This document shows positions 5,230 through 62,929 of a stretch of DNA of 64,000 bases, piece by piece (positions within the stretch are counted from its first letter, which is position 1; the number at the start of each line of letters is the position of its first letter). A model generated the notes under the pieces. The model saw only the letters and a list, made by a program, of their open reading frames with translations, did no database searches and had not been told where the DNA came from. Position numbers and translations under genes: made by a program. The stretch comes from Narcine bancroftii. Its lineage: Eukaryota. The stretch spans positions 349,866,001 to 349,930,000 of the forward strand of contig NC_091470.1 of NCBI RefSeq assembly GCF_036971445.1. The letters are read 5' to 3'.

Positions 5230-6730
5230 TAATTAAAATCAGATTTTTAAAAAAAATTATTTTGTAAAACAACAACATCAGTATCTTTTTGAATTACTGG
5301 CAATACTAATTATGAGGAAAAAAACTAGAGTCCAGACTGTGAAGAAAATGACATCTAAACAAGGAACAACTGCGGAAGATTTAGGGTCTACCTTGGAAAT
5401 GGAGCCTGGAGAGTCGATTCCTCATCCTTCAAGATCATCGCGACAAGACCAGTCTAAGATCCAGGTAACACCAGCGCCACCTCCCTGGGGAACCGAGGAA
5501 GATGGCGCTGGAGTTCAGAAACTGCTGCTCCATCCTCCTGAGCAGGATCAATCGCACATGCGCAGGGCACAGGCTGTGATTCTATCTGCCGGGGTGGGGG
5601 GGGTGGTGGAGGGTGAGCTTCTGCAGCCCAGTACTGCTGGACTGATGGGGGGGGTGGGGGGGGGACTTAAACTCCACAGGTGGGTCAAACAGCCACCCAC
5701 ATTGACAGAGGAAGAGAAGGAAGAAATAATCAGGTCTGAAGAGGAAGATACTCAAGCGGTAACAGAAGAGGAAGAAACATTATTGTATCAGATAGGTCCT
5801 CATCTTCTTACGCTGAAGTTAAAGCTGGGTCATCTGTTAAGGCTTCTGTCGTTCCTCATTATGTGAATCCAGCAAGTCAATTTGATGCTTTAAAGTTTAA
5901 TCCTGCTAAAGGTGTGTTATGGAAAAATAGATATAAATTCGCTTTCAGATACCCAGCTACACTTAAGATTTTTAATGGAGAATTTCAGTTACAATTCTTT
6001 ACTGATGAAGATGATTCTCTGCTATTTGCTAATTCATTGCTTGATAATAGATAAAAAGAGAGTCAAGATCAATTCTCTCAATGAATGAAGTCGATTCAAG
6101 AGAAGAATAAAATTGGCTTAGAGAAGGTGGGATGCCATGAACTGACTGAAATTGACATTGATTGTGATCAAGTTAATAGAGACTTGGAGGCAGCTGATCA
6201 CACTTGATATATTGAAGATTGTTGTTTGTTTTTTTTTATTTGATCGGTCTGTTCAAGGGAGGTGGATTTGTCTATTTCTCCTTCCGAAGTCGTTGGCCCC
6301 TTGGTGGCATTGATCACTTCCCTTAAAATAGAGACCTACCCTTGCGGGCGGAAATTAAACATTCATAGTGCTAAATATATTAGTGGCTAATTTAAATTTT
6401 GTGACATTGAATGTTAATGGACTCAATAATCAGATTAAGAGAAAGAGGGTTTTGGCTTATATTAAAAAAATGAAAGTAGGTTTTGCATTTTTACAGGAGA
6501 CTAATTTGACTGAGAAACAACATTAAAAGTTAAAAAGAGATTGGGTTGGTCGATTCAAAACGAGAGGTGTTGCTATTTTGATTAATAGGAAGTTGCCTTT
6601 TAAATTAGAAACAGTTATTAATGATTCAGCGGGTAGATTCCTTGTTGTAAATTGTCAAATTTATTCAGAATTTTGGACTCTCATGAATATTTATGACGTT
6701 TATTCAAGATTCTTTTCTTAATTTGGCACA
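5230..6730 (+). mobile_element. L1/Tx1-clade 5' fragment: internally deleted ORF1 and start of ORF2 APE endonuclease
   Basis: ORF1 start MRKKTRVQ; ORF1 C-terminal domain KFAFRYPATLKIF; endonuclease start near 6383, LNFVTLNVNGLNNQIKRKRVLAYIKK..AFLQET.L, with stops. Confidence 0.85.
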
Positions 6731-6859
6731 GGCACACCTGCCTTCTTGCCACCATGTCTATCTATCCATGTACCACTTTCAGGGAGCCATGCATCAGCAG
6801 ACATGAGCGTGTACTCCTGCAACCAGGAATATGCCAGATGCCACATTCCCTCATGGACA

Positions 6860-7195
6860 TGCCTGTGTACTGGAAGAAGAACCATATTACTAAAGTTAGA
6901 GAGCCATCTTCTCCCCCTATCACTTCTCAGCATTGTGTTCTACTACCCTCCCACCTGTATCCATCTATGACCTTTTAACTGTTAGCCTCTGCTCATCCAT
7001 TTCCCTCCTCTTCCCCTCTGCCTCCTCCACCTCCCCACCATTTTATTCAGGCATCTGCTTGTGTTTGCTCATACCTTGACAAAGGGCTCAAGCCTGAAAC
7101 GTTGATTGCATTTTACTTGCTATGGATGCCTACTTGACCTGCTGAGTTTCTCCAGCACACTTGACCCTACCATCTCCAGACTCTCTCGTTTAGCT
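6860..7195 (+). mobile_element. Penelope-like terminal fragment
   Basis: ataccttgacaaagggctcaagcctgaaacg and ctgctgagtttctccagca motifs shared with the other copies. Confidence 0.65.
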
Positions 7196-7239
7196 CAATA
7201 TTACTAATATTTGTATTTCAACGAGGTGATGATTTTAAA

Positions 7240-7597
7240 AATTTAGATGTACAATACTGTAACAGGCCCTTCAAACCCACAAACCCATGATCCCCAAATA
7301 CAGCAATTAATCTACAACCCACTACAAACCCCGTACGTTTTTGAAGGGTTGGATGAGACCTGGAGGAGACATGGGGAGAACGTACAAACTCTTTACAGAC
7401 AGTGGCAGATACAGGCCATTCTGGCCTTCCAATCCACACTGCCCAAATACGCCCATGTGCCCAATTAGCGTACTAACTCTGGAAAAAACCAGAGGAAACT
7501 ATTGCAGATGTGGAGAGAATGTAGAAACTCTTTAAAGAAGCATCGGATTCAAGCCCATGTCACTGGTGCTGCACAGCCTTGCACTAACTGTGCCATG
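7240..7597 (-). mobile_element. V-domain tRNA SINE with internal partial duplication
   Basis: ctgtaaagagtttgtacgttctcccc core and ggcctgttacagtattgta..taaattt tail. Confidence 0.75.
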
Positions 7598-7791
7598 TCA
7601 TGAGCTTCCAGCAGTCCCTGGGAGCAGCCTGCAGATGAGAGAGTTTTGTGTTACACAGCAGCTTGGGATAAACCTCGACAAATAACCTTCCTTTATTTTG
7701 TTATTCAGCACAATATTCCGGCTATCTGAAGAATCCATCTCTCTGAAAAGTAAGGTTTTATACTTTTTTAGACCTGACGTAATAATAGCTG

Positions 7792-8475
7792 ATTAAATAC
7801 TGCTTCAAAGGGTTATAATTACCCATGTTTCAGGTGTGGACAGATAACTTTTCAGAATTACATATCTATAATGGGAGCACATCTCAACTGACACCACACC
7901 TTTAAATATTTGCATGTTCCGAAGGGTTCTGAACACAGAACTCCAAGCACTAAATGTAAAGTTGTTTTGTATAAATTAACCAAAAATATACTTTATTCAC
8001 AATAAATTACCAGAAAAAAATAAAAACGATCCAAGTCTTTTTACAGCCATAATGTTAGTCATACATGTACATTCTCATCAACATACATTGCTACATTTGT
8101 TCTTTCAATACACCATTACCACCACTGTAGCACTTTGCCGTTATTCCTCCCTCTGTTGGTTGAGAGTCTTCCCCTCGGACTCAATCCCTCAATATTACGC
8201 TGACAGATATGGCTGTCTGGATATCATATACCCAGAATATAAACTGACAGAACAAGTACATCTTGAACTTGTATGAAGTTGCATGGATTTCTCATCAAGA
8301 ATAAAGATTTATTATGATAGCCTTAGCTGTAGCAAAAAAATGTATTATGTCAACCTGGAAATTAGAAGATAGCCTGAGAATACAGCAATGGTACATAGAA
8401 ATGAATAAATGTATTCCATTGGAAAAAAATAACATATAATTTAAGAAATAACATCACAGTATTCGAACAAATTTG
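7792..8475 (+). repeat. Source copy of a 684-bp direct duplication (second copy 10581-11264)
   Basis: Co-linear at offset 2789; 5 substitutions counted by eye. Confidence 0.95.
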
Positions 8476-8797
8476 GGAACCGTACATGGAACACAACAGA
8501 GAAGTCCTACCGCGGACCTCCACCCCCTAAAATGACAGAATGAGAGGAAGACGAAATGAACTGACCCAGTGTGTAAAAGTAGATGACACAAATTTCTTGT
8601 TTATTTTCATTGTGTGATGACATTGGTTAATGGGTTTAATGTATCATATGGTTTGAATGTTGAGTGGGTGGGGTGAGGGAGGGTGAAGGAGGGAGGGGGG
8701 TAAAAAGGGGAGAAAATTACACTGTGTATATTCAAGAGGGAAATGTTTGTGTGTATTTTGGTCATTATGGTTCATAGTGTGAAAAATAAAAAAATTA
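8304..8797 (+). mobile_element. 5'-truncated L1 3' end with 12-bp TSD
   Basis: ORF2 C-terminus IALAVAKKCIMSTWK...CIPLEK.TY...FEQIWEPY, AATAAA and A-tail. TSD TCATCAAGAATA at 8292-8303 and 8798-8809. Confidence 0.9.
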
Positions 8798-8989
8798 TCA
8801 TCAAGAATACAGAAATGCAGGACACAGCTTCGTAATGTCTTTCCTTATCTCATCCTGAAAAATTCAGTGACGGCTGATTAAGATAAACATTCATTAATCT
8901 CCCCCTGAACAGCAAAAGCAGTACAAAATCAGAATATCCCATGCCAGTTTGCTAAAGTATCGATGAATAAAGTATTGGTGAATAAAGGC

Positions 8990-9272
8990 AAAAACTAGAG
9001 GACATGGGTTAAGAGTGAAAGGGGAAATGTTTAAAGGGAACATGAAGGGGAACTACTTCATGCAGAGAGTGGAGATATTTTGGAGTGAGCTACCAGCTGA
9101 AGTGGTGAAAGTTGGCTCCATTTTGACTGAAGAAAAATTTGGATAGGTATATGGATGTAAGGGATAAGGAGGGATAAGTTTCCAGGTGCAGGTCATTGGA
9201 TCTAGGTAGAATAATTGGCACAAAATAGATGGGCTGAAGGGCTTGTTTCTGTATTATAGTGTTCAGTGGCTC
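8990..9272 (+). mobile_element. CR1 3' end
   Basis: aaaactagaggacatgggttaagagtgaaagggg...gggctgaagggcttgtttctgt, a typical CR1 3' region. Confidence 0.8.
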
Positions 9273-10580
9273 TAAAGTATTGTTGTGCAAGTTTCAATGT
9301 CAATTTCCAAACCATTACCCTAAAGTGACATCCCACTGTGAACTATCAGCCTACAGCCTTTGCAGATAATGTTTGATTACTGTGGGGAAGCTATAGATCA
9401 ACATTTATTTTAAATTTGGTATTAACTGGCGGCTTCCCTGATCCCACAATGCCTAAAAGGTATCAAGATATTAATAATCCTAACTCCTAAACCTGACAGT
9501 CAAAACTGCAGCCAACATCCTTACCTCGTGATCCATGTGGGTACATTGTCAGAGTCTGGTCATTGTTGGCCAAAGAGCTTAAATATTCAATCCAAGGCAA
9601 TAACAAAGACACCAGTCTGCTTGTTGACAGTAGCAGGTTTATTGATTCAGGATGTGAGGCTTTATGTAGATCCAAACTGACATAAATTGTACATGATCAA
9701 AGCATTAGCAGTTGTTTGAGAACCTGTTCATCTGAATTTGATGCAATAATTCAGCATCAATGTGTCTTTAATATGGATAATTGACGTGTCTGAGTTGAAA
9801 ATCGTTTGGGTTGATTTTGGCAAATCCAAATCTTTTGATTTGAGAATCTTTTGTTCTCTCTTGAGGTGATAATTCTGTGAGCAAACTGAATTTAAACAAT
9901 TATGAATATAAAAGTATATCCAAAATCACTCATGCAAATTGTATATTTGGAAAGGATTTTATGCCCGTTACTGATGCAACTCCTTCCCATCCACATAACC
10001 CAGCTCCTAACCATACGATCTCTCATCTGTAAATAAATTGTTCCCTTTTCCTGAAAACCTCTAGTAACTCACTTTCCCTTTTCTTCCTGCACCTTCCTTC
10101 TCCTTTTATCATTCAACCTGTATATAATCTGCCAAGAATGCTTTGCCTGTACTTGTTTGCACGATGCTTTGGCTGAATCTGAAGGAACTAATTCATAACC
10201 AATGTGATCTCCCATAACAATAGCAGTTCACTGGGAATTCTGTCCTATGGTTCCAGGTGTGTTTAAAAGGATGCAAGTGAACTAAAATAACCCTTTTTTT
10301 CTGTTCACACGTTTACTTTGGCAAGGAGAGGATGGAGCAAGGAAAAAGAAAATGATAAGAAGTATTTCTCATCTGGGTTGGCAGTTTAAACATTTCATCT
10401 TTAGAACTGACCGAATGTCGGACCCTTTAACTTGCAGATCTCCTACAGATTCCTCACGTAGTTCTGGGATTGTAGATAACGCAAGCTTATCGCATCAAAG
10501 AGAAGCAGCTTCTCCCCAGTGGCAGAAAAAGCAAATATGTTTTGTGGTTAAACAAGAAAATCTGCAGATCTTGTGACTGT

Positions 10581-11264
10581 ATTAAATACTGCTTCAAAGG
10601 GTTATAATTACCCATGTTTCAGGTGTGGACAGATAACTTTTCAGAATTACATATCTATAATGGGAGCACATCTCAACTGACACCACACCTTTAAATATTT
10701 GCATGTTCCGAAGGGTTCTGAACACAGAACTCCAAGCACTAAATGTAAAGTTGTTTTGTATAAATTAACCAAAAATATACTTTATTCACAATAAATTACC
10801 AGAAAAAAATAAAAACGATCCAAGTCTTTTTACAGCCATAATGTTAGTCATACATGTACATTCTCATCAACATACATTGCTACATTTGTTCTTTCAATAC
10901 ACCATTACCACCACTGTAGCACTTTGCCGTTATTCCTCCCTCTGTTGGTTGAGAGTCTTCCCCTCGGACTCAATCCCTCAATATTACACTGACAGATATG
11001 GCTGTCTGGATGTCATATACCCAGAATATAAGCTGACAGAACAAGTACATCTTGAACTTGTATGAAGTTGCATGGATTTCTCATCAAGAATAAAGATTTA
11101 TTATGATAGCCTTAGCTGTAGCAAAAAAATGTATTATGTCAATCTGGAAATTAGAAGATAGCCTGAGAGTACAGCAATGGTACATAGAAATGAATAAATG
11201 TATTCCATTGGAAAAAAATAACATATAATTTAAGAAATAACATCACAGTATTCGAACAAATTTG
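10581..11264 (+). repeat. Derived copy of the 684-bp duplication, abutting the Tigger-like left TIR
   Basis: Matches 7792-8475, breaks inside the L1 and joins GTACAACTCCAATTATCC. Confidence 0.95.
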
Positions 11265-12668
11265 TACAACTCCAATTATCCAAAATGGTCATGATTGGGC
11301 CTGTTTTGGATAAATGATTGTTATATATTGTAAGGTAAAACATCATGAGATGGGAATGTGTAAGGAGTTACCCTGTACAGGGCTGTAACAAGATGTGAAT
11401 GCATCCTTGTACTTACAAGATAAGAGAGACATTGATGGATTGAGAGGCAGGAAGCTAGCAGGGAAAGGATAGCAACAGTATTAGTCATTGGACAAGTAAT
11501 GATATGATGATGTTCTAAGCACGTATCCAAGGGTATAAAAAATCACCATTTTGCTGATAACGGCAGAATGCATTCTCCGACTAACATGGTTAGTTGCAAG
11601 TGTTACAATCCGGTAATAAAGAACAAAGAACCCTGATTTCGACTCAGTCTGGTGTTTGTCTCACTCATTCATGAACAAAGCAGACCTAACAATAGTCACG
11701 ATAATATAAAATATTTGTTGCTGCATAAGAATACACCCTTCTCACTCTACTCACTGTAGTGCACACTGTGGGGCATATGAACAGTTTTTTGTGATGGTGG
11801 AAGGCATCATTAAGTAAAGTTTCTTCTGCTATTTGAATCTTGCATCTCTAAGTAATTTAAGAATCCTCCCAAGTAACTCAAGAGACATAACAATGATACT
11901 TTTGCTAAATGATAATTAAAAAAAACACCCTAGCAGCAACAGCAAATCTATCGTAACTGCATTTATCTGCAGAACAAACAACGAGGGAAGGCTTTTAAAG
12001 CATGCAATTATGTCTAATTCTCACCAAAAAAAAAAATAAAATAAATTCAACACCAAAAATTCAAAATTCTACTCAGAGATTTTGCCAAACTTCCAAAATT
12101 TTTTCAACTTGTGACATCAGTTCGGCTCCGAAAAAAAAAAATTGAGGATAACTGAGGATCTCTTATTTTTTCGGATATCCTCATTTATGAAAATAAATGA
12201 CATATGACATAATTAAAAGTTAAATTATAATTTTAAATGATAAAAATATATGGTATATAGGCTTGGGAATGTAATATATAAATATGAGGAGAGTTTTCTT
12301 TCGAGCAGAGAAGCTGAAGGGAACTGGCTGAGATATACAAAATTATGAGGGAGAGATAGTAAAGGTTCCCTTATTTGTCAGGTAATACTACATTTAGAAT
12401 GAAATAGTCGTGAAATACTCTTATAACATTTGCGAAGTATTTTTTGAGTGCTTGAATTCAACAAGGCCTGTTTGGTTAAGAAACAAGTACTGGTGCATGA
12501 CATCATTTCAGCTTTGAAATATTTTGGATAAGAGGATTTCTGATTTCTGAAGTCCTTAATTATTTCCCAAAACTTTTGGAGCCAAATAGACGTCACTTCT
12601 GGGTCCAAAAAAGTTCAGGTAACTGAAGATTTTGGATAATCTGATTTCAGATAATTGGAGTTGTACTG
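11264..12668. mobile_element. Non-autonomous Tigger/pogo-like DNA transposon
   Basis: TIRs GTACAACTCCAATTATCCAAAAT and ATTTCAGATAATTGGAGTTGTACTG+TA, with internal ggataa repeats. The left end lacks the terminal CA. Confidence 0.8.
11319..11691 (+). mobile_element. Solo LTR nested in the Tigger-like element
   Basis: TGTTA...TAACA inverted termini, TATAAAA near 11535, AATAAA near 11615. No clear TSD. Confidence 0.7.
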
Positions 12669-12669
12669 T

Positions 12670-13205
12670 ACACAAAAACGCTGGAGAAACTCAGCAGGTA
12701 CCACAGCGTCCATGGGAGACAAAGATATATACCTACGTTTTGGGCCTGAGCCCTTCATCAAGGTATGAGCAAAAAGCAGCCAGATACCCGAATAAAAAGT
12801 TGGGGAGAGTAGCAGAGGTCAACGGCCATGAGGTCAAGCGTGGACAGAAGGCAGGAGAGAAAAGGTGAGAATTAATCAGGTGAGGAGATAGCTCTGTGAA
12901 TGCAGAGCTGGAGGGAAGGAGACAGAGGGATAAAGGAATAGAGAGAGACAAGGGGTGGAAAGCTGGAGGAAAGGAACAGAGAGAGAGAGAGATGGGGGCG
13001 GCTAAGGGAAATTGGAGGTCAATGTTAATGCCATCTGGTTGGTGGCCAGACGGAATATGAAGTGTTGTTGCTCCATCAGTTTGCTGTTTGGCGGTGGATG
13101 AGACCATGGACAGAGATGTCAGCATGGGAATGGGATGAGGAATTGAAATGGGTCTCCCAGTCTTTGCGATGTAGAGGAGGACACAACGAGAGTACAGGAT
13201 GCAGT
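12670..13205 (-). mobile_element. Penelope-like element 3' part
   Basis: GHQPDGINIDLQF GIY-YIG tail and terminal motif. It continues the terminal sequence at 10549-10580. Confidence 0.8.
12729..12766 (-). ncRNA. Minimal type-I hammerhead-like motif (degenerate) in a Penelope-like repeat
   Basis: ATACC-TTGATGA-AGGGC TCAG GCCC-AAAAC-GTA-GGTAT gives stem I, core, stem II and a palindromic ACGT. C3 and G12 are non-canonical here. Confidence 0.55.
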
Positions 13206-13469
13206 AGATATTTTACAAACATGCTATGTCGTAGCTTTAGTTTCCATCGACCCAACTAAATGGAACAGTGGTATTTAGGGCTTGCTTGTGTGTCTACGTG
13301 ACGTGGCCTTGCTTCTAAACTCTGGGTGCTCTCTGTCTTGAGTTTGCATGTTCCTCCTTTGACTGCAATGAGTTCCCTTACCACGTGCTAATCAGAGGCC
13401 TAGTTGGCACAGCAGAGTGATAGAGGAATCAGTGTGAAGCTGATATGATAAACAAGATGGTGAAGATGA

Positions 13470-14248
13470 TTTTAAAAATGGCAGTGCCGCCACTGGTGCA
13501 GACCCAGGAAGAGCGGGGAGCAGAGACACAGCACTCCTGCAGGGTCCAACTGCCCAGTTCAACTGCAGTCAGCTCTGAACAGGTTTTGAATGGCCCGTTA
13601 AAGGAGCCAACAGTAGCTTTATTTAAAATCCCGCGACATGGGTCTGGACCAAAGATGGCGGTGCCTATGATCGGCAGCAGCCATGAGGGGTTGCAGACTT
13701 CAGAGAAGCTGAGGACTAGTGCAGGGCACCAGAAAACAGGAAGACCACTCCCCCCCCACCCCCATCTGAGAAGGAGAAGCAGAAGAGAGGACTCACTGAA
13801 TGGTGACCATGTCGATGGACCAGTGAGCTTCTCAGCGGCCAAAGAACCCACACAGGCGGTGGGCTGCTGGTGACTTGAGGCAAGGAATCCACGGAGGCTG
13901 CGGGCTGCTTGAAACTATGGTCAAGGGACTTGCACCAGGCTGGCATGCAACTGGCAGAAAGGGTATCAGGTATCGGAACTGGGACACAAGAGTGCCAAGG
14001 GTGTTGAAGAGAGGTTCAAATCTGGAGCTCGCCTTGTCAATGGTTTGGACTGGACACTGTGCTGGAGGTGAATCCATTGACACTCGGTGACTCAAGGGGG
14101 GGACTCTCTTTTGCTTCTCTTTCTCTGAATGGAAGAGGCGCATCAGGCAATTTCTGCCAATGGCGAATCTGTCTGCCTTACAACAGACAAAAGCAATTTC
14201 ATGTAATCTGACCTTGTTTTTATTACAACAATAAATTGAATCTTGAAT
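13470..14248 (+). mobile_element. Non-autonomous LINE-derived element (AAAATGGC start, ttgaatc tail)
   Basis: Homologous to 40125-40907 and 21491-22550; ends tgccttacaacagacaaaagcaatttc...aataaattgaatcttgaat. Confidence 0.7.
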
Positions 14249-14820
14249 GCATGTGAGAGAGAATAGATTACAAACAAATAAACAGGGGAATGGGAATCGA
14301 AGGGATTGTTCAGAGAACAGGCATAAACTTGAAAGATGGTAAGTCAGATAAAAAGGGAAACTTTAAGATGATCAACTTAACTTGACTTTAATTAACATAA
14401 ACTAGAACAAAGCATGGAATATTTAAGAGCTGAATGTCTGCTCCACAAACATGAGATACTCCAGCAATTCAACTTCTGTTACCATAATCTACCTTAAGTA
14501 TCTCTTATAGTTATCTACCATAATCATAAGGCCAGAAACTGTCTGCCAACATCCAAGTACCTCTCTGTACTAATGTCATGCACCAGTACTTGTTTCATAG
14601 CCAAACAGGCCTTGTTGAATTCAAACACTCAAAAATTACTTTGCAAATGTTATAAGAGTACCCATCTCTTCTACTATCTTCTCAGACAGGGCATTCCAGA
14701 TTTCAGCCTCCCTCTAAATGGAAGATAAAACCTCCATGGATCCATTCTCAACCTCTTACACCTCACTGTAAATCTCTTGATTAAACACTTTGACAATGAG
14801 GCAACGTTATGTACAATCTA

Positions 14821-15016
14821 CACTATGGCCTTAGTAGCCTGAATATGCCTGATCTTGGAAGCTAAGCAGGCTCAGGCCTGGTCAGCACTTGGAGGGGAGA
14901 CTGATTAGGAACACAAGGGTGTCTGCGAGGGGTGCTTACGGTAGACAAAAGTTAAAGAATTTCATGTCTATTTCATTCTAAATGTAGTATTACCTGACAA
15001 CAATGGAACCTTTACT
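14821..15016 (+). mobile_element. 5S rRNA-derived SINE-like element (5S pseudogene head 14821-14920 plus tail)
   Basis: ctatggcc..tagcctgaatatgcctgatcttggaagctaagcaggctcaggcctggtcagcacttggaggggagac aligns to 5S with a 10-nt deletion. The tail is shared with 62768-62894. Confidence 0.85.
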
Positions 15017-15499
15017 ATCTCTCCATCATAATTTTTTATATCTCAGCCAGTTCCCTTCAGCTTCTCTGCTCCAAGGAAAACAACCCAAGCCTGTCAATCT
15101 CTCCTCATATTTATATATTACATTCCCAAGCCTATATACCATATATTTTATCTACATTTAAAATTATAATTTAACTTTTAACTATGCATCTCCCCTGCAA
15201 AATAAACTCAAGTGATTGTTTCATAGAACACTCCTGGTAACACCATTATGGGCAAACTAGCAACGATTGCAAAAACCTGAGAGTTCATCGTCTTTGAAAT
15301 AAAAAGTATACAATTCAAGCATTCTCTCTTTCATGTCCTGTTGTGTTACGTCAACAGCACACTCAGGAGCTTTTGCACCTGACTTAATTGATATTCATAA
15401 AGAGAAAGTGAGATCATTCATTCCCTCAGCTTTTTCACACCAGATCACCATGGCCAGTATCAAAATTATTCAAGATCCATGAGGTTGCAAACATATAAT

Positions 15500-16169
15500 T
15501 GGCTGCTTCAAAGTGTTACAGCCAGCAGAAGCAGCTGGGACTGGACAGGACAAGCTGTCAATCTTATGGAAAGCCCCATTTTGGAAGACGGCCTGATGAA
15601 AAGCCTTGTGGTTCATGCAAGAGGAGAGGACTGACTGTCTAATGTTTCACTTGGAATAAGAGAAACAAAAAGGAACTGTATAATGACTTGAAAAAGAGGT
15701 TATCATCTGGAGAACCCTGAAGGGGCAGGTTTCGTCAGCGGGACGCTGGAGTGGCTGATGGAAGTACATCAGTTGTGGACGTCCTGGAACAACAAATCTC
15801 TCTCTGAAAATCAACAAGGACCTTCCTGAGTGGTAACCATTTACCTTTCAAGCCCCAAATCCTGCTGAACTTTATAAATGTTAAATTCTGTGCAAAGTAT
15901 AAGAATTGCCTGCAGCCAGTGCACTTGGAAGAATGAGAATTGAGATTCGACTGTGAACCAAAGAACATTTCTGAACTTACACACACATTACATACACGTG
16001 CGCTTAGAATTAGAAGGAGGTTAAGTAAGGTTAAATAAGTCAATAGAGATAAGTTAAAGTTTGATTGTATTTTCATGTTTAAAGATAATTAAAAGCAACT
16101 TATGTTTAACCATTTGTCTTGGTGAATATCTACTGCTGCTGGGTTTTGGGGTCCTCTGGGCTCGTAACA
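15500..16169 (+). mobile_element. Gypsy-type LTR (5' boundary uncertain)
   Basis: Ends ctgctgggttttggggtcctctgggctcgtaaCA; homologous to 1-585 and 39415-39752. Confidence 0.75.
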
Positions 16170-16779
16170 ATACATCCTTAAGTAATCCCTTACTAATCAC
16201 CGAGCACCTATCACATTGGGATTACTTAAATTGGTATGCGAGTGGAAAGATAAAGTTTGAAAGGATGGGTGATAACCAGTATATCAAAATGTCAAGATGC
16301 TGGGAAGGAGCTAAGTGGTGATAAGGTATTGGACAGGAGATAGGAGGGCTGGAGGCAAAGAAAGAGATCAAGGCAGGGAAGGGTTTGAGAGGAAAGAGTA
16401 GGTAAAGAAGAGATGGAAACAGTAGAACCAGATAAACGTGGGAGTGACCTAAAAGCAGACAAATTGTTGTTCATGCCATTGGGTTTTATTGCTGCCCATG
16501 ATGAATATCTTTAGACCTACAGCACGGTAACAGGCCCTTCCGGCCCATGAACTCGTGCTGCTCAATTACACCCAATTGATCTACGTTTTGAAAGATGGGA
16601 GGAAATCGGAGCACCTGGAGGAAACCCACCCAGAAAAAGGGAGAACAAATCTGTCTGCCTTACAGCAGACAAAAGCAATTTTGTGCAATATGACACTGCT
16701 TTTAATACATGACAATAAATTGAATCTTTGAACTCCTTACAGACAAAGCTGAAACAACATTGTGCTAACCGCTAATATG

Positions 16780-21490: not shown

Positions 21491-22550
21491 CAAATGGCAG
21501 CGTTGCTGGAGACGGTGTATCGGCAGTGTTGCCGCTGGTGTGAGACGGGAGAGCAGGAAACTGAGACACAGTGCTCTTCTGCAGGGTCATGATGTCGACA
21601 GCCCCAACCTGGTTTTAACAGCCTGTAAAAGGGGTTGTTGATTCTTTAATGTCTTTGAAACCACGGAGGTCCTTGCTCAAACCGGGGGGCTCAGCAGGCT
21701 GATGGTCCCACAGGCTGCTGGACAACTGAAGGACTCAAACTGAGGGACTCAAAACAGGCCGCTGGCTGCTGGAGCTGGCTCATGGAAAGCAGGATTCAAG
21801 AGTCTGCATGTCATGCAAAACCCTCTCCACCATCGAGAACATCTACAGGGAACACTGCCGTCGGAGAGCAATCATCAAGGATCCACATCACCCAGCACGC
21901 CCTCTATTCTTGCTGCTACCAACAAAGAGGTCTAGGTGTCGCAAGACTCACACCACCAGGCTCAGGAACAGCTGCTGCCCCTCCACTATCAGACTCCTCA
22001 ATGACAAACTCAATCAGGGACTCATTTAAGGACTCTTACGTTTGCACTTTATTGATTTGTTTTTTCTCCCTGTATTGCACAGTCAGTTTGCTTTCATTTC
22101 ATTATCTATTTAGATGTGTGCAATGTGTACTGCTTTTTTTTTGCACTACCAATAAGTGGTCATTCTGTCTTGCCTGCAGGAGAAAGAATCTCAGGGTTGT
22201 ATGTGATGTCGTGTATGTGCTCTGACAATAAACCTGAATCTGAATCCGAAGAAGGGCCCCAGAAGGGGCCTCAAGTGATGAAAGCTTCCTGATTAGATCG
22301 GAAGTTCAGCTCTGGTAAGCTCAGGTTTGCCACAGGAGCTGCAGAGGCTGCGGGAGGACTGAAGGCAAATCCACGGGCACCTAGTATCTCTGAACAGGAC
22401 TCTTTTTTTTTAATCTCTTTCTGTTATTGTTAGGAGCCCGGGGCAATGCCTGCGGAAACTCTTTGGGTATCTTTGCAGCAGACAAAGATTGATGGAGATT
22501 TTGTGTAACCTTACATTTAGTACATGACAAGAATGGAATCTTGAATTTTG
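21491..22550 (+). mobile_element. Non-autonomous LINE-derived element interrupted by a Rex1/Babar 3' fragment
   Basis: Same head and tail as 13470-14248. Confidence 0.65.
21810..22246 (+). mobile_element. Rex1/Babar LINE 3' fragment
   Basis: IENIYREHCRRRA.IIKDPHHP..LF.LLP...TTRLRNSC.P..IRLLN, with tail ctctgacaataaacctgaatctgaatc. Confidence 0.85.
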
Positions 22551-22919: not shown

Positions 22920-23848
22920 CATTGAACAATACAGCACAGAAAACAGACCATCCAGCCCTTCCACTCCATGCTGAAATGCCATTCCGCTAGTCCCATCGAC
23001 CTGCACCCAGTCCATCCATGTATCTCTCCCATCCATGTATCTATCCAATTTATTCTTTAAACTTGAGTGAGCCCGCATTTACCACATCAGATGGCAGCTC
23101 ATTCCACGTCCCCACCACTCTCTGAGTAACAAGGTTCTGCCTAATGTTTCCCTTAAAGCTTTCCCCTTTTACCCTAAAGCCATGTCCTCTAATATTTATC
23201 TCTCCTAATCTAAGTAGAAGAGCCTACTCACATTTACTCTGTCTATACCCCTCTGTAAACCCTCTGTCAAATCTCCCCTCATTCTTCTATGCTCCAAGGA
23301 ATAAAGTCAGAATCTGTTTAATGTTTCCCTGTAACTCAACCTGTCAACATCCTAGAAAATCTTCTCTGCACTCTTTCAATCTTACTGACATCCTTCCTGT
23401 AGTTAGGTGACGAAAACTGCACACAATCCTCCAAATTTGGCCTCACCAATGTCTTCTACAACCTCACCATAAAATCCCAATTCCTGTTCTCAATACAGAT
23501 ACTTAATTCCCTTAAAATGGCATCACAGGTAGACAGGGTAGTAAAGAGAGCTTCTGATTTATGAAGGCCAAGTTGCCAAAAGCTCTCTTTACTACCCTGT
23601 CTACCTGTGACACCACTTTCAGGGAATTACGTATCTGTATTCCCAGATCCTTCTGTTCTACCACACTCCTCTACCATTTACTGTGTATGTCCTACCTTCA
23701 TTTCTCCTTTCAAAATGCAACACCTCACTTCTCTGCATTAAATTCCTTCTGACATATTCTGGCCAATGTTTCCAGATGGTCCAGATCCCTCTGCAAGTTT
23801 TGAAACCCTTCCTCACTGTCCACAACACCTCCAAACTTAGTGCCAATA
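22920..23848 (-). mobile_element. CR1 3' portion
   Basis: NAEK.EVLHF..., caggtagacagggtagtaaag, and a CR1 3' tail. Confidence 0.9.
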
Positions 23849-37321: not shown

Positions 37322-39367
37322 CAGTGGTTCGCAACCTTACTCTTTCCATTCACATACCACTTTAAGTATTCCCTATGCCATCAGTGTTCTGGTTAGTAAG
37401 GGATTGCTTAAGGTGGTACGTGGGTTGAAAGAAAAAGTTTGAAAACCACTGTTTTAATTGTATCTAATTGACTCATTATGTGCACAGTTTCATGACTCCA
37501 AAGGAAATGGGCCAATAAAATTTTTTCTCAAGCAAAATATTTCAGTAACAATTGAGTCTCGAGCACTGATTCTCAACCTTCCCTTCCCACTCATGTACCA
37601 CCTTAAGCAATCCCTTACTAATCACAGAGCATCAATGGCATGGGGATTACTTAAAGTGGTATGTTTTTCAAGCTTTGTTGGGACGATTGGTAAACTGCCT
37701 CAGGATCTTCGTGATGCCACCATCATCACCCTGTACAAAAACAAAGGCGAGAAATCAGACTGCTCAAACTACAGGGGTATCACTTTGCTCTCCATTGCAG
37801 GCAAAATCTTCGTTAGGATTCTACTAAATAGAATAATACCTAGTGTCGCCGAGAATATTCTCCCAGAATCACAGTGCGGCTTTCGCGCAAACAGAGGAAC
37901 TACTGACATGGTCTTTGCCCTCAGACAGCTCCAAGAAAAGTGCAGAGAACAAAACAAAGGACTCTACATCACCTTTGTTGACCTCACCAAAGCCTTCGAC
38001 ACCGTGAGCAGGAAAGGGCTTTGGCAAATACTGGAGCGCATCGGATGTCCCCCAAAGTTCCTCAACATGATTATCCAACTGCACGAAAACCAACAAGGTC
38101 GGGTCAGATACAGCAATGAGCTCTCTGAACCCTTCTCCATTAACAATGGCGTGAAGCAAGGCTGTGTTCTCGTACCAACCCTCTTTTCAATCTTCTTCAG
38201 CATGATGCTGAACCAAGCCATGAAAGACCCCAACAATGAAGACGCTGTTTACATCCGGTACCGCACGGATGGCAGTCTCTTCAATCTGAGGCGCCTGCAA
38301 GCTCACACCAAGACACAAGAGAAACTTGTCCGTGAACTACTCTTTGCAGACGATGCCACTTTAGTTGCCCATTCAGAGCCAGCTCTTCAGCGCTTGAGGT
38401 CCTGCTTTGCGGAAACTGCCAAAATGTTTGGCCTGGAAGTCAGCCTGAAGAAAACTGAGGTCCTCCATCAGCCAGCTCCCCACCATGACTACCAGCCCCC
38501 CCACATCTCCATCGGGCACACAAAACTCAAAACGGTCAACCAGTTTACCTATCTCGGCTGCACCATTTCATCAGATGCAAGGATCGACAATGAGATAGAC
38601 AACAGACTCGCCAAGGCAAATAGCGCCTTTGGAAGACTACACAAAAGAGTCTGGAAAAACAACCAACTGAAAAACCTCACAAAGATAAGCGTATACAGAG
38701 CCGTTGTCATACCCACACTCCTGTTCGGCTCCGAATCATGGGTCCTCTACCGGCACCACCTACGGCTCCTAGAACGCTTCCACCAGCGTTGTCTCCGCTC
38801 CATCCTCAACATCCATTGGAGCGCTTTCATCCCTAACGTCGAAGTACTCGAGATGGCAGAGGTCGACAGCATCGAGTCCACGCTGCTGAAGATCCAGCTG
38901 CGCTGGATGGGTCACGTCTCCAGAATGGAGGACCATCGCCTTCCCAAGATCGTGTTATATGGCGAGCTCTCCATTGGCCACCGTGACAGAGGTGCACCAA
39001 AGAAAAGGTACAATGACTGCCTAAAGAAATCTCTTGGTGCCTGCCACATTGACCACCGCCAGTGGGCTGATAACGCCTCAAACCGTGCATCTTGGCGCCT
39101 CACAGTTTAGCGGGCAGCAACCTCCTTTGAAGAAGACCGCAGAGCCCACCTCACTGACAAAAGGCAAAGGAGGAAAAACCCAACACCCAACCCCAACCAA
39201 CCAATTTTCCCCTCCAACCGCTGCAATCGTGTCTGCCTGTCCCGCATCGGACTTGTCAGCCACAAACGAGCCTGCAGCTGACGTGGACGTTTTACCCCCT
39301 CCATAAATCTTCGTCCGCGAAGCCAAGCCAAAGTTGTGAGTGGAAAGAAAAAGGTGGAAAACTACTG
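37322..39367. mobile_element. hAT-type MITE with roughly 130-bp inverted arms, split by an RTE insertion
   Basis: CAGTGG...CTACTG ends, 8-bp TSD GGTTAAAA/GGTTAAAG. Arm 37322-37451 is the reverse complement of 37564-37662 plus 39334-39367. Confidence 0.85.
37663..39333 (+). mobile_element. Young 5'-truncated RTE (BovB-like) LINE with an uninterrupted RT domain
   Basis: QCGFR, FVDLTKAFD, GVKQGC, LFADD and YLG motifs. Premature TAG at 39108 where the other copies have TGG. 3' end ccataaatcttcgtccgcgaagccaagccaaag. Confidence 0.97.
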
Positions 39368-39752: not shown

Positions 39753-40124
39753 GTCCCACGTTCTGTTGATGGTTTGTTAGCCACACAGTTGATACACAAA
39801 AGTGTTGGAGGAACACCCCAGGCCTGGAAGCGTCCATTGGAGAGAAAGATATATAACCGACGTTTTGGGCTTGAGTGACTGAGTTATGCAAGTTGATGAG
39901 GGGTGATAAGAAGAAAAAAGCAGCCAATGCTGGAAGCTGTTCAGAAGACAAGGTGACAATGGTGATGTGAAGAGAGGCTAAGTGGAATCAAAAGTGGGAG
40001 GGGTGGAGAGAGTAGAGGAATTCAGTTGGAAGAACCAAAAAAAGAGGATGACAGGTGGAATTAGGTGGGACAAAAAAGAGAGGGGAAAAGGGGGGGGGAT
40101 TGGGCAAGATGAAGAATTTGTTTC

Positions 40125-40907
40125 AAAAAATGGCTGCAGTTGGTGTGGACCCACGGAGAGTGGGGAGTGAAGTCTCAGCAATCCCCCGCAGGGTCCAGCT
40201 GCCTAGTCCGATTGCAGTCTACTCTGTATAGGCTTTAAATGGCCTGTTAAAGGAGCTGACAATGGTTTATATTAAAATCCCACAACTGCAGGGCTTGGCC
40301 TGAGATGACGGCTCCTAAGATCAGCAGCAGGCCACAAAGGTTTGCAGACTCTGGGGAAGCAAAGGATTGGCTCAAGGCACCAAATAACAGGGAGACAGCA
40401 CCCCATTTGAGGAGAGAAGCAAAGGAGACGACCCATGGGACGGTGACCTTAGCAGTGGACCTGTGAGGGGCTGTGAGGCTGAGGAACTCATAGGCAATGG
40501 GGCTGTTGGTGACTCGAGGAGAGGAACCCATGTATGATGCGGGCTGCTGGAGACTGTGGTCACCAGGCTGCAGACTGCTGGAGACTGGCTCGTGGCTGGC
40601 TGAAGGGGTACTAGGTATGGGAACCGAGATGTGAGAGGGTGGCTGGGGACTTTCTGGTCTGTATCTGGAGCTCAGGGTGCTGATAGTTTGGACCTATGAC
40701 TGTGTGGCTGCAGAGGCTCTGAGTGTGCTGGAATCAAAGTCAGTGACTCTGCGGGGGGACGCAGTTTTGCTTCTCTTTCTCTCTCTCTGTTAGGGGTGCT
40801 GGGCAATTTTGCTGAAAGAGAATCTTTGCCTGCCTTACAGTAGACTAAGTGAAATTTCGTGTCATGTCACATTTTCTGTTTTATCACAGAGCAATAATCT
40901 TGAATCT
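40125..40907 (+). mobile_element. Non-autonomous LINE-derived element
   Basis: Co-linear with 13470-14248 (aaatggcctgttaaaggagc, aagatg.cgg..ccta.gatc.gcagcag, tail tgccttacagtagac...cttgaatc). Confidence 0.75.
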
Positions 40908-44189: not shown

Positions 44190-44830
44190 TACATCAAAGG
44201 TTCCTTTTATTGTCACATAATAATACATGAAAAATCTAATATACAGGGTATACTTTAACTTCTGACTGCCATATGGCAAACAAATAGTCACCATGAGCAC
44301 TTGCCGGCACTCCTAATAGGAGAAAGAAAGGCAAAAGAGAGACCTTTCAGAAATACTCAACGACCGTGGATTTGTCTCCAGAACTTCTGCAGCCGCACCG
44401 ATTCTGTTCAAGCCATTGGCAACCTGAGCTCCCGTTCCAAACTTCCAATACAGTTAGGAAGTCCCTTCAGGAGCCATTTTGCCTTCAGCACCCTCTCCAA
44501 TCCCGGTTCTGACCTGGTCCCCATGCTCTAGTCTCCTGCAGCCTATGTGGTTCCTTCAATAGCAAGTTGCCAACATCCTGTAGCCTGTGTGTATCCCTCA
44601 GTTGCTGAGCTCCTCGCTGGTCCACTGCCGTGCTCACCTTCCCTGTAGGGTCATCTCCCATTCTTCTACTAAAAGGGGACAGGGGAGAAATGTTTCCCCG
44701 TTTCTGATGCCCCGTTCCTGTCTATTTTTCCCCTGGAGACTGCAACTCCTCGCAGTATGCTGTCAGCTTCTTTAACTGGCTGTTGAAGTCTATAAGAATT
44801 AGGTCTGGGTGGTCGGACCCTGCAGAGCAG
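44190..44830 (-). mobile_element. Non-autonomous element carrying the aagttaaag...tgacaataaaaggaacctt tail
   Basis: The minus-strand 3' end matches the tails at 14950-15016 and 62820-62894. Confidence 0.6.
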
Positions 44831-44849
44831 CACTGTTCTTGTCCCCTTC

Positions 44850-45642
44850 TCTCCCAGGTCTGCACCTTGGTGTTCTCCAAGATCAGGGACTCAACATCGA
44901 ACCAGGAGGCCATGGACATTCTCAAAGGACAATACCTGCACAAAATCAACGTTGTTTATGCTAGAAACCTTCTAGTGACTTGAAAACAATGACACGATGA
45001 GTCAAACGACGAATATCTTTGGCCCCTGCGAGCCCTCAGCAAAGCCTGCGAATGCAAAGCTGTGTCTGCCATGGAGTATACCGATGACCTGATCCGGGAT
45101 GCCTACGTCACGGGGATCAGGTCGAACTACATATGACAGAGACTTTTGGAGCAAGGGGAACTCAGTCTGTGGAGAGCAGTTGAGCTGGCAGATACATTGG
45201 AGGTGGCTCTCCAGAACATGGAAGCCTACTTGACTGACATCGCAGCCACATCATGATCACCCCGATCGCAGCCATCCCAGGATATGCCACCACCCCTCAT
45301 CCACTAACGACCAGACTACAGCAGTAGTGCTCCACAAAAGGCCTCCCAGTCTCCCCCTGGCAGGAGGTTCTCCCGGAGGCCCTTCACTCTATCAAGTCCC
45401 TGCTGTGCACCGCCACTAACGCTGCACCACATGAACATATGTTTTCCTTCCCCAGGAAATCTGTGACAGGGACCACACTACCAGCATGGTTGACGTTCCA
45501 AGGGCCCGTCCTGCTCTAGAGTCACGTGAGGAACCATAGATCTAACCCATTGGTCGAAAGGGTCCACCTCCTCCATGCCAACCCCTAATATGCCTACGTG
45601 GCATATCTGGACAGACACGAGGACACCGTTTCCGTAAGGAAA
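44850..45642 (+). mobile_element. Gypsy internal relic: gag joined to integrase C-terminus
   Basis: AMDILKGQY..KINVVYAR..L; CECKAVSA.EY.DDLIRDAYVTGIRS; IKSLLCTATN..PHE; PLVERVHLLHANP.YAYV. Confidence 0.85.
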
Positions 45643-59156: not shown

Positions 59157-60172
59157 TCTTTGGCTTGGCTTCGCGGACGAAGATTTATGGAGGGGGTAAA
59201 AAGTCCACGTCAGCTGCAGGCTCGTTTGTGGCTGACCAGTCCGATGCGGGACAGGCAGACACGATTGCAGCGGTTGCAAGGGAAAATTGGTTGGTTGGGG
59301 TTGGGTGTTGGGTTTTTCCTCCTTTGCCTTTTGTCAGTGAGGTGGGCTCTGCGGTCTTCTTCAAAGGAGGCTGCTGCCCGCCAAACTGTGAGGCGCCAAG
59401 ATGCACGGTTTGAGGCGTTATCAGCCCACTGGCGGTGGTCAATGGGGCAGGCACCAAGAGATTTCTTTAGGCAGTCCTTGTACCTTTTCTTTGGTGCACC
59501 TCTGTCACGGTGGCCAGTGGAGAGCTCGCCATATAATACGATCTTGGGAAGGCGATGGTCCTCCATTCTGGAGACGTGACCCATCCAGCGCAGCTGGATC
59601 TTCAGCAGCGTGGACTCGATGCTGTCGACCTCTGCCATCTCGAGTACCTCGACGTTAGGGGTGTGAGTGCTCCAATGGATGTTGAGGATGGAGCGGAGAC
59701 AACGCTGGTGGAAGCGTTCTAGGAGCCGTAGGTGGTGCCGGTAGAGGACCCATGATTCGGAGCCGAACAGGAGTGTGGGTATGACAACGGCTCTGTATAC
59801 GCTTATCTTTGTGAGGTTTTTCAGTTGGTTGTTTTTCCAGACTCTTTTGTGTAGTCTTCCAAAGGCGCTATTTGCCTTGGCGAGTCTGTTGTCTATCTCA
59901 TTGTCGATCCTTGCATCTGATGAAATGGTGCAGCCGAGATAGGTAAACTGGTTGACCGTTTTGAGTTTTGTGTGCCCGATGGAGATGTGGGGGGGCTGGT
60001 AGTCATGGTGGGGAGCTGGCTGATGGAGGACCTCAGTTTTCTTCAGGCTGACTTCCAGGCCAAACATTTTGGCAGTTTCCGCAAAGCAGGACGTCAAGCG
60101 CTGAAGAGCTGGCTCTGAATGGGCAACTAAAGCGGCATCATCTGCAAAGAGTAGTTCACGGACAAGTTTCTC
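59157..60172 (-). mobile_element. 5'-truncated young RTE copy with 13-bp TSD
   Basis: Open frame from LFADD to the C-terminal CNRC...HKRAC; TSD TTATAATGAGTCC at 59144-59156 and 60173-60185. Confidence 0.97.
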
Positions 60173-61457: not shown

Positions 61458-61834
61458 TCTTTGGCTTGGCTTCACGGATGAAGATTTATGGAGGGGTAAT
61501 GTCCACGTCAGCTGCAGGCTCGTTTGTGGCTGACAATTCCGATACCGGACAGGCAGACACGGTTCCAGCGGTTGCAAGACAATTTTGAGGGGGAGGACGA
61601 GGAGAGGGAGGACGTGGACATGTCCTTGGGCCTGCGCAAAGGAGCTTTTAGGTGGAGGGCAGTGTGCGCAGTACTGGCCCCACCCTTTACACCCATGGTT
61701 CATGTGCCGTGGCCAAGCAAGCTGGGACGTGGCAGTGAGGTCCTTGGGTCGTAGGTTTTATATCGGAGTGGCCTTCTCGTATGCAAGTTTTTTACCCGGG
61801 CTGGAGGGGCCTGCCTCCCCTCCTAGGTCAGACC
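61458..61834 (-). mobile_element. Bipartite RTE-derived non-autonomous element (GC-rich 5' module plus RTE 3' end)
   Basis: 61458-61577 matches the RTE 3' end. Flanked by ATACCT on both sides inside a CR1 tail. Confidence 0.8.
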
Positions 61835-62109
61835 ATACCTGGTCCTACTGCACAACAATCTAACCTTTTCCAACTTCATACCTACACCCCTCTATTTTTT
61901 CTGACATCCATGTGCCTAAGAATCTATTATATGTCCTATTGTACCAGCCTCCACCACCATCCCTGGCAATGCACTCCGGCACCCACCACTCTCTGTGTTT
62001 CAGAATGGCAGAATAAACCTCGGCCTTCCTGAACTTCTGTCTGTCAAGAATCGTGGTGAGGAAATTGAGTTGTTAGAGGTCACAATATTACCCGTTAGTT
62101 GGATAAGAT

Positions 62110-62556: not shown

Positions 62557-62706
62557 NNNNNNNNNNNNNNNNNNNNNNNNNNNNNNNNNNNNNNNNNNNN
62601 NNNNNNNNNNNNNNNNNNNNNNNNNNNNNNNNNNNNNNNNNNNNNNNNNNNNNNNNNNNNNNNNNNNNNNNNNNNNNNNNNNNNNNNNNNNNNNNNNNNN
62701 NNNNNN
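62557..62706. other. Assembly gap (N run)
   Basis: Run of N. Confidence 1.
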
Positions 62707-62894
62707 TGGTGGTTAGAGGACTGATCTTGTAAACTAGAGGTCGCAAGTTTGTTCCTCGATGGGGCCTCATTTCTGTGATGGGTGCTGGACAAAGTGGCGA
62801 CTCTCTGTCTTCCTTACAGTAGAAAAAGTTAAATAATTTCAGGTACATTACATTCTAAATGTAGTATTATGTGACAATAATGGAACTTTTACCT
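62707..62894 (+). mobile_element. tRNA-Thr(TGT)-derived SINE-like element (head 62707-62767, 5' end in the gap)
   Basis: gtggttagaggactgatcTTGTAAactagaggtcgcaagtttgttcctcgatggggcct aligns to vertebrate tRNA-Thr(TGT). It is followed by the tail shared with the 5S-headed element. Confidence 0.85.
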
Positions 62895-62929
62895 TTTAAT
62901 GGCTAAATATCTGATTTTTTTTTTCCAGT

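What the first reader, a model, noticed from the sequence alone, without database searches (positions are those of the whole stretch)
14821..15016. Head-swapped SINEs: a 5S rRNA head and a tRNA-Thr head on the same body/tail
Seen: the 5S-derived head is followed directly by gtctgcgaggggtgct-tacggtagacaaaagttaaagaatttcatgt...cattctaaatgtagtattacctgacaacaatggaacctttac. At 62768-62894 a tRNA-Thr(TGT) head is followed directly by ttctgtgatgggtgct-(28 extra nt)-tacagtagaaaaagttaaataatttcaggt...cattctaaatgtagtattatgtgacaataatggaacttttac. Established: SINE2 (tRNA) and SINE3 (5S) heads supply type 2 and type 1 Pol III promoters, and module exchange occurs in SINE evolution. Inference: a modular family in which one LINE-recognised tail has captured different Pol III RNAs; it may be uncatalogued in batoids.
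Basis: partly seen in the sequence, partly recalled or inferred. Interest (0 to 1): 0.7.

Follow-up and report, generated by a model that had tools for sequence, protein, structure and literature searches.

The report
Two RNA promoters, one retroposon tail
Two abundant short jumping repeats in this fish genome, one headed by a 5S ribosomal RNA copy and one by a threonine tRNA copy, share almost the same tail, which matches the end of a longer non-coding repeat and is likely copied by Rex1 retrotransposons; the tRNA form likely arose by replacing the 5S head, a kind of swap already known from other animals.

Summary
Exact junction matches in the genome: 633 for 5S, 171 for tRNA-Thr (reversed-pattern controls 0); roughly 9,000 copies together. 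In 60 head-blind draws I found 29 5S, 24 tRNA and 7 truncated copies, with no third head. Corrections: the '28 extra nt' are the family norm (the 14.9-kb copy has a private deletion), and there is no separate body. All ~125 nt align with the 3' end of an ~830-nt non-coding retroposon (100/118), four long copies of which lie in this window. The tail ends like the genome's Rex1-type LINEs and has no target-site duplication, but no LINE with this exact tail was found, so the partner is inferred. Two body sites travel with the head, and the 5S form keeps the donor's state at both, so 5S came first and tRNA likely replaced it. 5S/tRNA pairs on one tail are published (CoeSINE4/5, HaSE1/3). This scan has noted 5S SINEs with Rex1-type tails in other genomes (unchecked notes). 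Repbase and Dfam could not be checked.

The parts
14821..14921 (+). 5S rRNA-derived head (type 1 Pol III promoter) of a decayed SINE3 copy, with a small deletion at the head-body junction
   Evidence: Rfam 5S 14821-14930, 31.7 bits; family head HMM 14829-14918, 76 bits
14922..15018 (+). Shared body/tail of the 5S copy, with a private 28-nt deletion; ends in the terminal hairpin, CAATAA and ACCTTT unit
   Evidence: body HMM 14935-15018
62692..62769 (+). tRNA-Thr(TGT)-derived head (type 2 Pol III promoter) of a SINE2 copy; its first ~15 nt read N in the window and were placed from genome locus L001
   Evidence: head HMM 62708-62769, 52.8 bits; L001; host tRNA gene match 74/78
62770..62896 (+). 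Complete shared body/tail of the tRNA copy (T/AAA body type)
   Evidence: body HMM 62771-62896, 116 bits
13475..14248 (+). Long non-coding retroposon, subfamily A; its last ~125 nt are homologous to the SINE body/tail
   Evidence: A consensus against SINE body 87 identities, 20 mismatches, 26 gaps
44194..44866 (-). Long non-coding retroposon, subfamily B, the closest relative of the SINE body/tail found
   Evidence: B consensus against 5S-type body 100/118
40105..40905 (+). Long non-coding retroposon, near full length
21500..22548 (+). Long non-coding retroposon interrupted by a Rex1-type LINE 3' fragment (about 21807-22240)
12344..12432 (-). SINE tail inside a local inverted duplicate of 14565-15186 whose head was deleted; not an independent insertion

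Best explanation
These are two dispersed SINE families, one with a 5S rRNA head and one with a tRNA-Thr(TGT) head, that share a 125-nt tail matching the 3' end of a long non-coding retroposon; the tail is likely recognised and copied by Rex1-type LINE reverse transcriptase, and the tRNA family likely arose by replacing the 5S head. Inferred history: (1) a template switch joined the end of the older ~830-nt retroposon (subfamily B-like) to a 5S rRNA whose T-run terminator no longer reads TTTT, so Pol III would read through into the tail; (2) this SINE3 amplified, and a sub-lineage acquired two body changes (G>T, AAAA>AAA); (3) a second switch at a short T microhomology put a tRNA-Thr(TGT) sequence in place of the 5S head; (4) both families amplified over the same period and then decayed. 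Shown: both junctions are multicopy, the heads match host genes, the tail is homologous to the long repeat, head and body states are linked, and there are no TSDs. Inferred: Pol III transcription, the Rex1 partner, template switching and the order of events.
For: Exact genome counts: body core 615, tail 901, 5S junction 633, tRNA junction 171; all reversed controls 0. Overlap estimate about 8,900 copies, 5,500-16,000 (14 of 138). Head-blind draws: 14 5S and 16 tRNA of 30; 15 5S, 8 tRNA and 7 truncated of 30. The two body consensuses are 122/127 identical. Linkage in head-blind loci: G/T site 16:0 against 0:12 (p 3e-8); A-run 18:4 against 0:12 (p 3e-6); the long element has G in 21 of 23 readable copies and a four-or-more-purine run in 21 of 21 readable copies. 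G also completes an 8-bp hairpin that T breaks (read from the sequence). Body against long-element B consensus 100/118; B copies are 22% and A copies 14% diverged against 8% for both SINE types (p 0.32 between the types). All seven tail consensuses (SINE, long A and B, four Rex1-type LINEs) close a TC...GA stem of 4-7 bp directly before an AATAA-type motif, with different stem letters. The SINE tail scores z 4.6 against one Rex1-type tail (0 of 1000 shuffles) and z below 0 against RTE and CR1 tails. No TSD of 8 nt or more in 0 of 10 and 0 of 26 copies. The LINEs carry RVT_1 and PF09004 and motifs like those encoded by the published Rex1 primers. The long element starts with AAAATGGCGG, and 6 of 70 Rex1-type loci have such a motif upstream of the endonuclease against 1 of 70 antisense.
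Against: No autonomous LINE with this tail was found: none in the 30 PF09004 loci (output partly cut), the 23 tails read from 49 C-terminal ends or the 70 endonuclease loci. Three of the four Rex1-type tails score no better than shuffles against the SINE tail (z -0.6 to 0.7), the tails were all anchored on the same motif, and the CR1 comparison rests on 2 copies. Fold z-scores of the tails are weak (-1.8 to 0.2), and 6 SINE copies show no two-sided changes. L2 tails were not examined. Polarity rests on two sites, with exceptions: 2 5S copies have T/AAA and 1 tRNA copy has G/AAAA among loci not drawn head-blind. 40 of 47 tRNA heads have T where the tRNA gene has the conserved B-box A, so promoter strength is uncertain. 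No copy was found in 600 kb of blindly chosen DNA (about 1.6 expected). Transcription was not tested.
Confidence: 0.66

Rival explanations
1. The tRNA-headed SINE came first and the 5S head replaced it, the direction proposed for some DeuSINEs; the tRNA lineage then fixed two body changes.
For: One tRNA-headed copy (L059) has the G/AAAA body. [quoted passage not shown] The two types have equal divergence.
Against: 0 of 12 readable head-blind tRNA copies have either donor state. Copies that keep the gene-like B-box A already have the T body (L083, L267). L059 is a rearranged cluster holding both head types. No tRNA remnant lies between the 5S head and the body.
Confidence: 0.12
2. Both heads were captured independently by a third, headless or LINE-borne element that already had exactly this tail; neither SINE derives from the other.
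For: 7 of 30 tail-drawn copies lack a head. The long element differs from the SINE body at about 15% of sites, so an unseen closer donor may exist.
Against: The seven headless copies share no upstream sequence and look 5'-truncated or interrupted. Both SINEs join the tail at the same point, behind the same TTTCTG. No long element or LINE with the SINE-type tail turned up.
Confidence: 0.1
3. The two families and the swap are real, but the copying enzyme comes from another CR1-group LINE (L2, Crack, Daphne or Zenon), not Rex1.
For: No Rex1-type LINE with this tail was found. L2 and CR1 partners also use 3' stem-loops (PMC4824008, passages). L2 tails were not sampled.
Against: The stem-closing TC...GA before AATAA and a 6-7-nt repeat is shared with all four Rex1-type tails. 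RTE and CR1 tails of this genome differ. The long donor also starts like Rex1-type elements. Rays rank highest in Rex1 coverage (PMC13343379, passage).
Confidence: 0.11
4. The two window elements are chance chimeric retrocopies of 5S rRNA and tRNA fused to a repeat end.
For: Both window copies are decayed, and one has deletions.
Against: 633 and 171 exact junction matches, and head-linked body states.
Confidence: 0.01

Closest known systems
CoeSINE4 (tRNA head) and CoeSINE5 (5S head) of coelacanth; HaSE1 and HaSE3 of Helicoverpa (PMC5786205, parts 1-2 of 5 and passages read)
   Same: A tRNA-headed and a 5S-headed SINE share the same 3' sequence in one genome.
   Different: Their shared part is a bipartite RTE 5'UTR+3'UTR. 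Here it is one colinear 3' end of a non-coding retroposon with a Rex1-type ending and no TSD.
Hagfish SINE1-1_EBu and SINE2-1_EBu (PMC7245038, parts 1-2 of 4 read)
   Same: Head replacement on an existing SINE tail, with both families active at the same time.
   Different: 7SL against tRNA heads, RTE partner, ~17-bp TSDs, and a UCON3 body in the tRNA form.
SINE2-5_NV with Rex1-24_NV of sea anemone (table row in PMC3747384, passage)
   Same: A SINE paired with a Rex1 LINE through its 3' end.
   Different: tRNA head only; no 5S sister listed; sequences could not be compared.
Chondrichthyan SINEs HE1 (V-SINE, HER1 partner), SacSINE1 (DeuSINE), SINE2-1_CM/CmiSINE (PMC3747384 table passage; PMC5499810 abstract, introduction, methods and passages)
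   Same: SINEs of cartilaginous fishes.
   Different: All are listed as tRNA-headed with CR1/L2-type partners, and HE1, SacSINE1 and CmiSINE carry a V, Deu or CORE domain. The present pair has no room for such a domain, and one member is 5S-headed.

Membership tests
SINE3 (5S-derived SINE) | 5' head derived from 5S rRNA, spanning the internal promoter | tested here: met
   consensus head 101/114 to the host 5S gene
SINE3 (5S-derived SINE) | Dispersed, multicopy, fixed head-tail junction | tested here: met
   633 exact junctions on both strands, control 0
SINE2 (tRNA-derived SINE) | 5' head derived from a tRNA, with A and B boxes | tested here: met
   74/78 to host tRNA-Thr(TGT) gene L271; B-box A is T in 40 of 47 copies
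SINE2 (tRNA-derived SINE) | Dispersed, multicopy, fixed head-tail junction | tested here: met
   171 exact junctions, control 0
SINE2 and SINE3 | No Pol III terminator (T4 or longer) inside the unit | tested here: met
   no such run in either consensus, 233 and 202 nt examined
SINE2 and SINE3 | Transcribed by Pol III | not testable with these tools
   needs 5'-resolved small-RNA data or a promoter assay
Rex1/Babar-mobilised SINE | 3' end shared in sequence with an autonomous Rex1 LINE | tested here: inconclusive
   same ending architecture in 4 of 4 Rex1-type tails, z 4.6 to one of them, but no LINE with this tail
RTE-mobilised bipartite SINE (CoeSINE4/5 type) | RTE-derived 3' end and long TSDs | tested here: not met
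   RTE tail z -0.2; TSD in 0 of 26
Bipartite Rex1 SINE (5' end plus 3' end of the LINE) | First part of the body matches a Rex1 5' end | tested here: not met
   the body HMM hit only separate insertions in 70 endonuclease loci; the body is colinear with the long element's 3' end
CORE-, V-, Deu- or MetaSINE | Conserved central domain between head and tail | tested here: not met
   everything after the head aligns to the long element's end, leaving about 5 nt; the domains themselves were not available for comparison
Named Repbase, Dfam or SINEBase family | Sequence match to a deposited consensus | not testable with these tools
   no repeat library is held

The most novel reading that the evidence does not exclude
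One Rex1-recognised RNA tail has been driven by three promoter types in turn: the Pol II-like head of an undescribed ~830-nt non-coding retroposon, then a 5S (type 1 Pol III) head, then a tRNA-Thr (type 2 Pol III) head. The order is still readable in the genome, and neither the SINE pair nor the long element is in any repeat library.
Probability: 0.3. Interest if true: 0.55.

Novelty: new member of a known kind. Interest (0 to 1): 0.38.

Why it matters
The pair is a clean, ordered example of SINE module exchange: donor, first SINE and derived SINE all survive in one genome, with two sites that give the direction. It also offers a natural comparison of type 1 and type 2 Pol III promoters on the same cargo, and a candidate recognition structure for Rex1, a LINE clade that is abundant in rays and has few listed SINE partners. 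The phenomenon itself is published, so the gain is a new case and better repeat annotation, not a new mechanism.

Tried and rejected
Third head class (U snRNA, other tRNAs): none in 60 head-blind draws, one locus drawn twice, all from the first hits along contig C1, and none in an HMM sort of 189 tail hits (70 5S, 49 tRNA, 48 long element, 22 unassigned, which were truncated copies, interrupted copies or weak hits; loci redundant). Autonomous partner: PF09004 search, 20 upstream extensions, endonuclease search plus 40 extensions and a search with the long element's 5' end gave no LINE with this tail; L349 and L362 were inspected and are separate insertions. Coding remnant in the long element: its consensus frames are stop-ridden and showed no same-strand Rex1 protein hit; a Pfam scan of its frames was not obtained. 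Bipartite-Rex1 reading, suggested by earlier notes on other genomes: not supported here. Blind census of 600 kb: 0 SINE copies, 9 long-element hits, 100 kb of it satellite. Covariation among SINE copies: none in 6 copies, as expected for neutrally decaying copies. Sequencing runs: no RNA holder listed; expression and orthologous empty sites remain open. Literature: eight searches ran; none listed a 5S/tRNA SINE pair or a Rex1-tailed SINE for sharks or rays, but the library lacks most subscription papers and Repbase Reports, and supplements were not opened.

Full report
Observation. Both elements are present. Their 3' parts align at 86% over 81 nt, far above shuffles (130.5 against a maximum of 51.9 in 500). 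The window copies are decayed: Rfam gives the 5S head 31.7 bits, under the gathering score, and ARAGORN finds no tRNA. The host is a 3.3-Gb genome.

Both forms are families. The 30 best loci for the tail carried 23 tRNA heads, 6 5S heads and 1 none (by eye). Exact-pattern counts over the whole genome were 615 for a body core, 901 for the tail end, 633 for the 5S junction and 171 for the tRNA junction, each on both strands with reversed controls at 0. Overlap of these lists on contig C1 (14 of 138) gives about 8,900 copies (5,500-16,000; likely a low estimate). Head-blind draws gave 14 5S and 16 tRNA of 30 and 15 5S, 8 tRNA and 7 truncated of 30. These are the first hits along C1, one locus was drawn twice, and no third head appeared. 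No copy was found in 600 kb of blindly chosen DNA; about 1.6 were expected.

Anatomy. The 5S head matches the host 5S gene at 101/114 through the gene's 3' end, where the gene's T-run terminator is read as TTTCTG in the SINE. The tRNA head matches a host tRNA-Thr(TGT) gene at 74/78, including four letters after the discriminator that occur in 1 of 3 such genes found; this is suggestive only, since CA could come from CCA. ARAGORN still of 30 family loci tRNA-Thr(TGT). In 40 of 47 tRNA heads the conserved B-box A is T. The two body consensuses are 122/127 identical; three of the five differences are at CpG-prone sites. The '28 extra nt' belong to both families, and the 14.9-kb copy has lost them. 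Neither consensus holds a T4 run. No TSD of 8 nt or more was seen in 0 of 10 and 0 of 26 copies.

Origin of the tail. The body HMM also hit longer repeats in the window. These form an abundant family of about 830-870 nt with a defined start (AAAATGGCGG), frequent 5' truncation, no open frame and several subfamilies. Four long copies and one tail fragment lie in this window, and 9 hits fell in the 600-kb sample. The whole SINE body aligns with the last ~125 nt of subfamily B at 100/118, and less well with subfamily A. B copies are about 22% and A copies 14% from their consensus, against a median of 8% for both SINE types (31 and 20 rows, p 0.32; pattern-selected, so biased low). The long element is therefore the likely donor.

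Direction of the swap. Two body sites are linked to the head in head-blind loci: G against T (16:0 and 0:12) and AAAA against AAA (18:4 and 0:12), unreadable copies excluded. The long element has G in 21 of 23 readable copies and four or more purines at the second site in 21 of 21. G also completes an 8-bp hairpin that T breaks. So the 5S form keeps the donor's state. Two 5S copies with T/AAA could be the bridge sub-lineage or recombinants. One tRNA copy with G/AAAA sits in a rearranged cluster (L059) and counts against the reading. Two sites are thin evidence; I put 5S-first at about 0.8 given a swap.

Partner LINE. PF09004-bearing LINEs are very abundant (82,324 first-look candidates). They carry RVT_1. 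Motifs like the one encoded by the published Rex1 forward primer occur at 5 places, 2 of them 563 and 771 nt before a motif like the reverse primer's, so I call them Rex1-type; linking PF09004 to Rex1 was recalled and no RT tree was built. Four tail families of these LINEs, the long element and the SINE all close a TC...GA stem directly before an AATAA-type motif and a short repeat, with different stem letters. The SINE tail scores z 4.6 against one Rex1-type tail, 0.7 or less against the other three, and below 0 against RTE (39 copies) and CR1 (2 copies) tails. A start motif like the long element's lies upstream of 6 of 70 Rex1-type endonuclease loci against 1 of 70 antisense. Against this: no LINE with this tail was found, fold z-scores are weak, and L2 tails were not sampled. 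The partner is inferred, at about 0.8.

Comparison with what is known. tRNA/5S pairs on one tail are described: CoeSINE4/5 and HaSE1/3 (PMC5786205; parts 1-2 of 5 and passages). Head replacement with concurrent activity is described for hagfish (PMC7245038; parts 1-2 of 4). Module exchange is a standing model (PMC5499810; abstract, introduction, methods, passages; PMC4824008, passages). A Rex1-paired SINE is listed for sea anemone (PMC3747384, table passage). Rays have among the highest Rex1 coverage, and Rex1 lacks ORF1 (PMC13343379, passages). Rex1 has a conserved 3' UTR followed by an oligonucleotide repeat (PMC6274825, section 4). Eight literature searches listed no such pair for sharks or rays; repeat databases and supplements were not seen. 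Earlier notes of this scan report 5S SINEs with Rex1-type tails in other genomes (unchecked); look-ups by sequence found nothing.

Verdict. A real and well-supported SINE3/SINE2 pair, a new member of a known kind. The additions are the traced donor, the likely direction of the swap and the likely Rex1 partner. Interest 0.38.

Noticed in passing
window 13475-14248, 21500-22548, 40105-40905, 44194-44866(-), 16650-16732: An abundant ~830-870-nt non-coding retroposon with a fixed AAAATGGCGG start, a second AAGATGGCG motif inside and a Rex1-type ending, in several subfamilies 60-72% alike; it may deserve its own description.
   Followed up: partly
window 12208-12511: Inverted local duplicate of 14565-15186 lacking 14661-14945, so only the SINE tail is kept.
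   Followed up: yes
window 23518-23615: Near-perfect 98-nt hairpin; Rfam mir-197 hit at 45.9 bits, below the gathering score of 74; probably a MITE-like foldback.
   Followed up: no
window 61811-61850 (-): Weak 40-nt match to the 5S head HMM (E 0.004), with no tail beside it.
   Followed up: no
window 37458-39107 (+) and 59213-60172 (-): Open reverse-transcriptase frames of 550 and 320 aa (RVT_1); CR1-like and RTE-like by recalled motifs.
   Followed up: partly
L059 (G000:C24:68740465-68743620): Cluster of repeated SINE bodies with both a 5S and a tRNA head and an RTE-like insertion; its tRNA copy has the 5S-type body.
   Followed up: partly
L267: tRNA-headed copy with an inverted duplicate of its own body directly upstream.
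   Followed up: no
L036-L041, L051: Near-identical 5S SINE copies with identical flanks on C23 and small contigs, i.e. segmental or tandem duplicates.
   Followed up: no
G000:C15:227.40-227.66 Mb: 5S rDNA array; all 47 scored RF00001 matches lie here.
   Followed up: partly
L141-L150 (G000:C9:150.0-150.1 Mb) and L132: A 100-kb satellite array, and a GAA-type run of about 2.5 kb.
   Followed up: no
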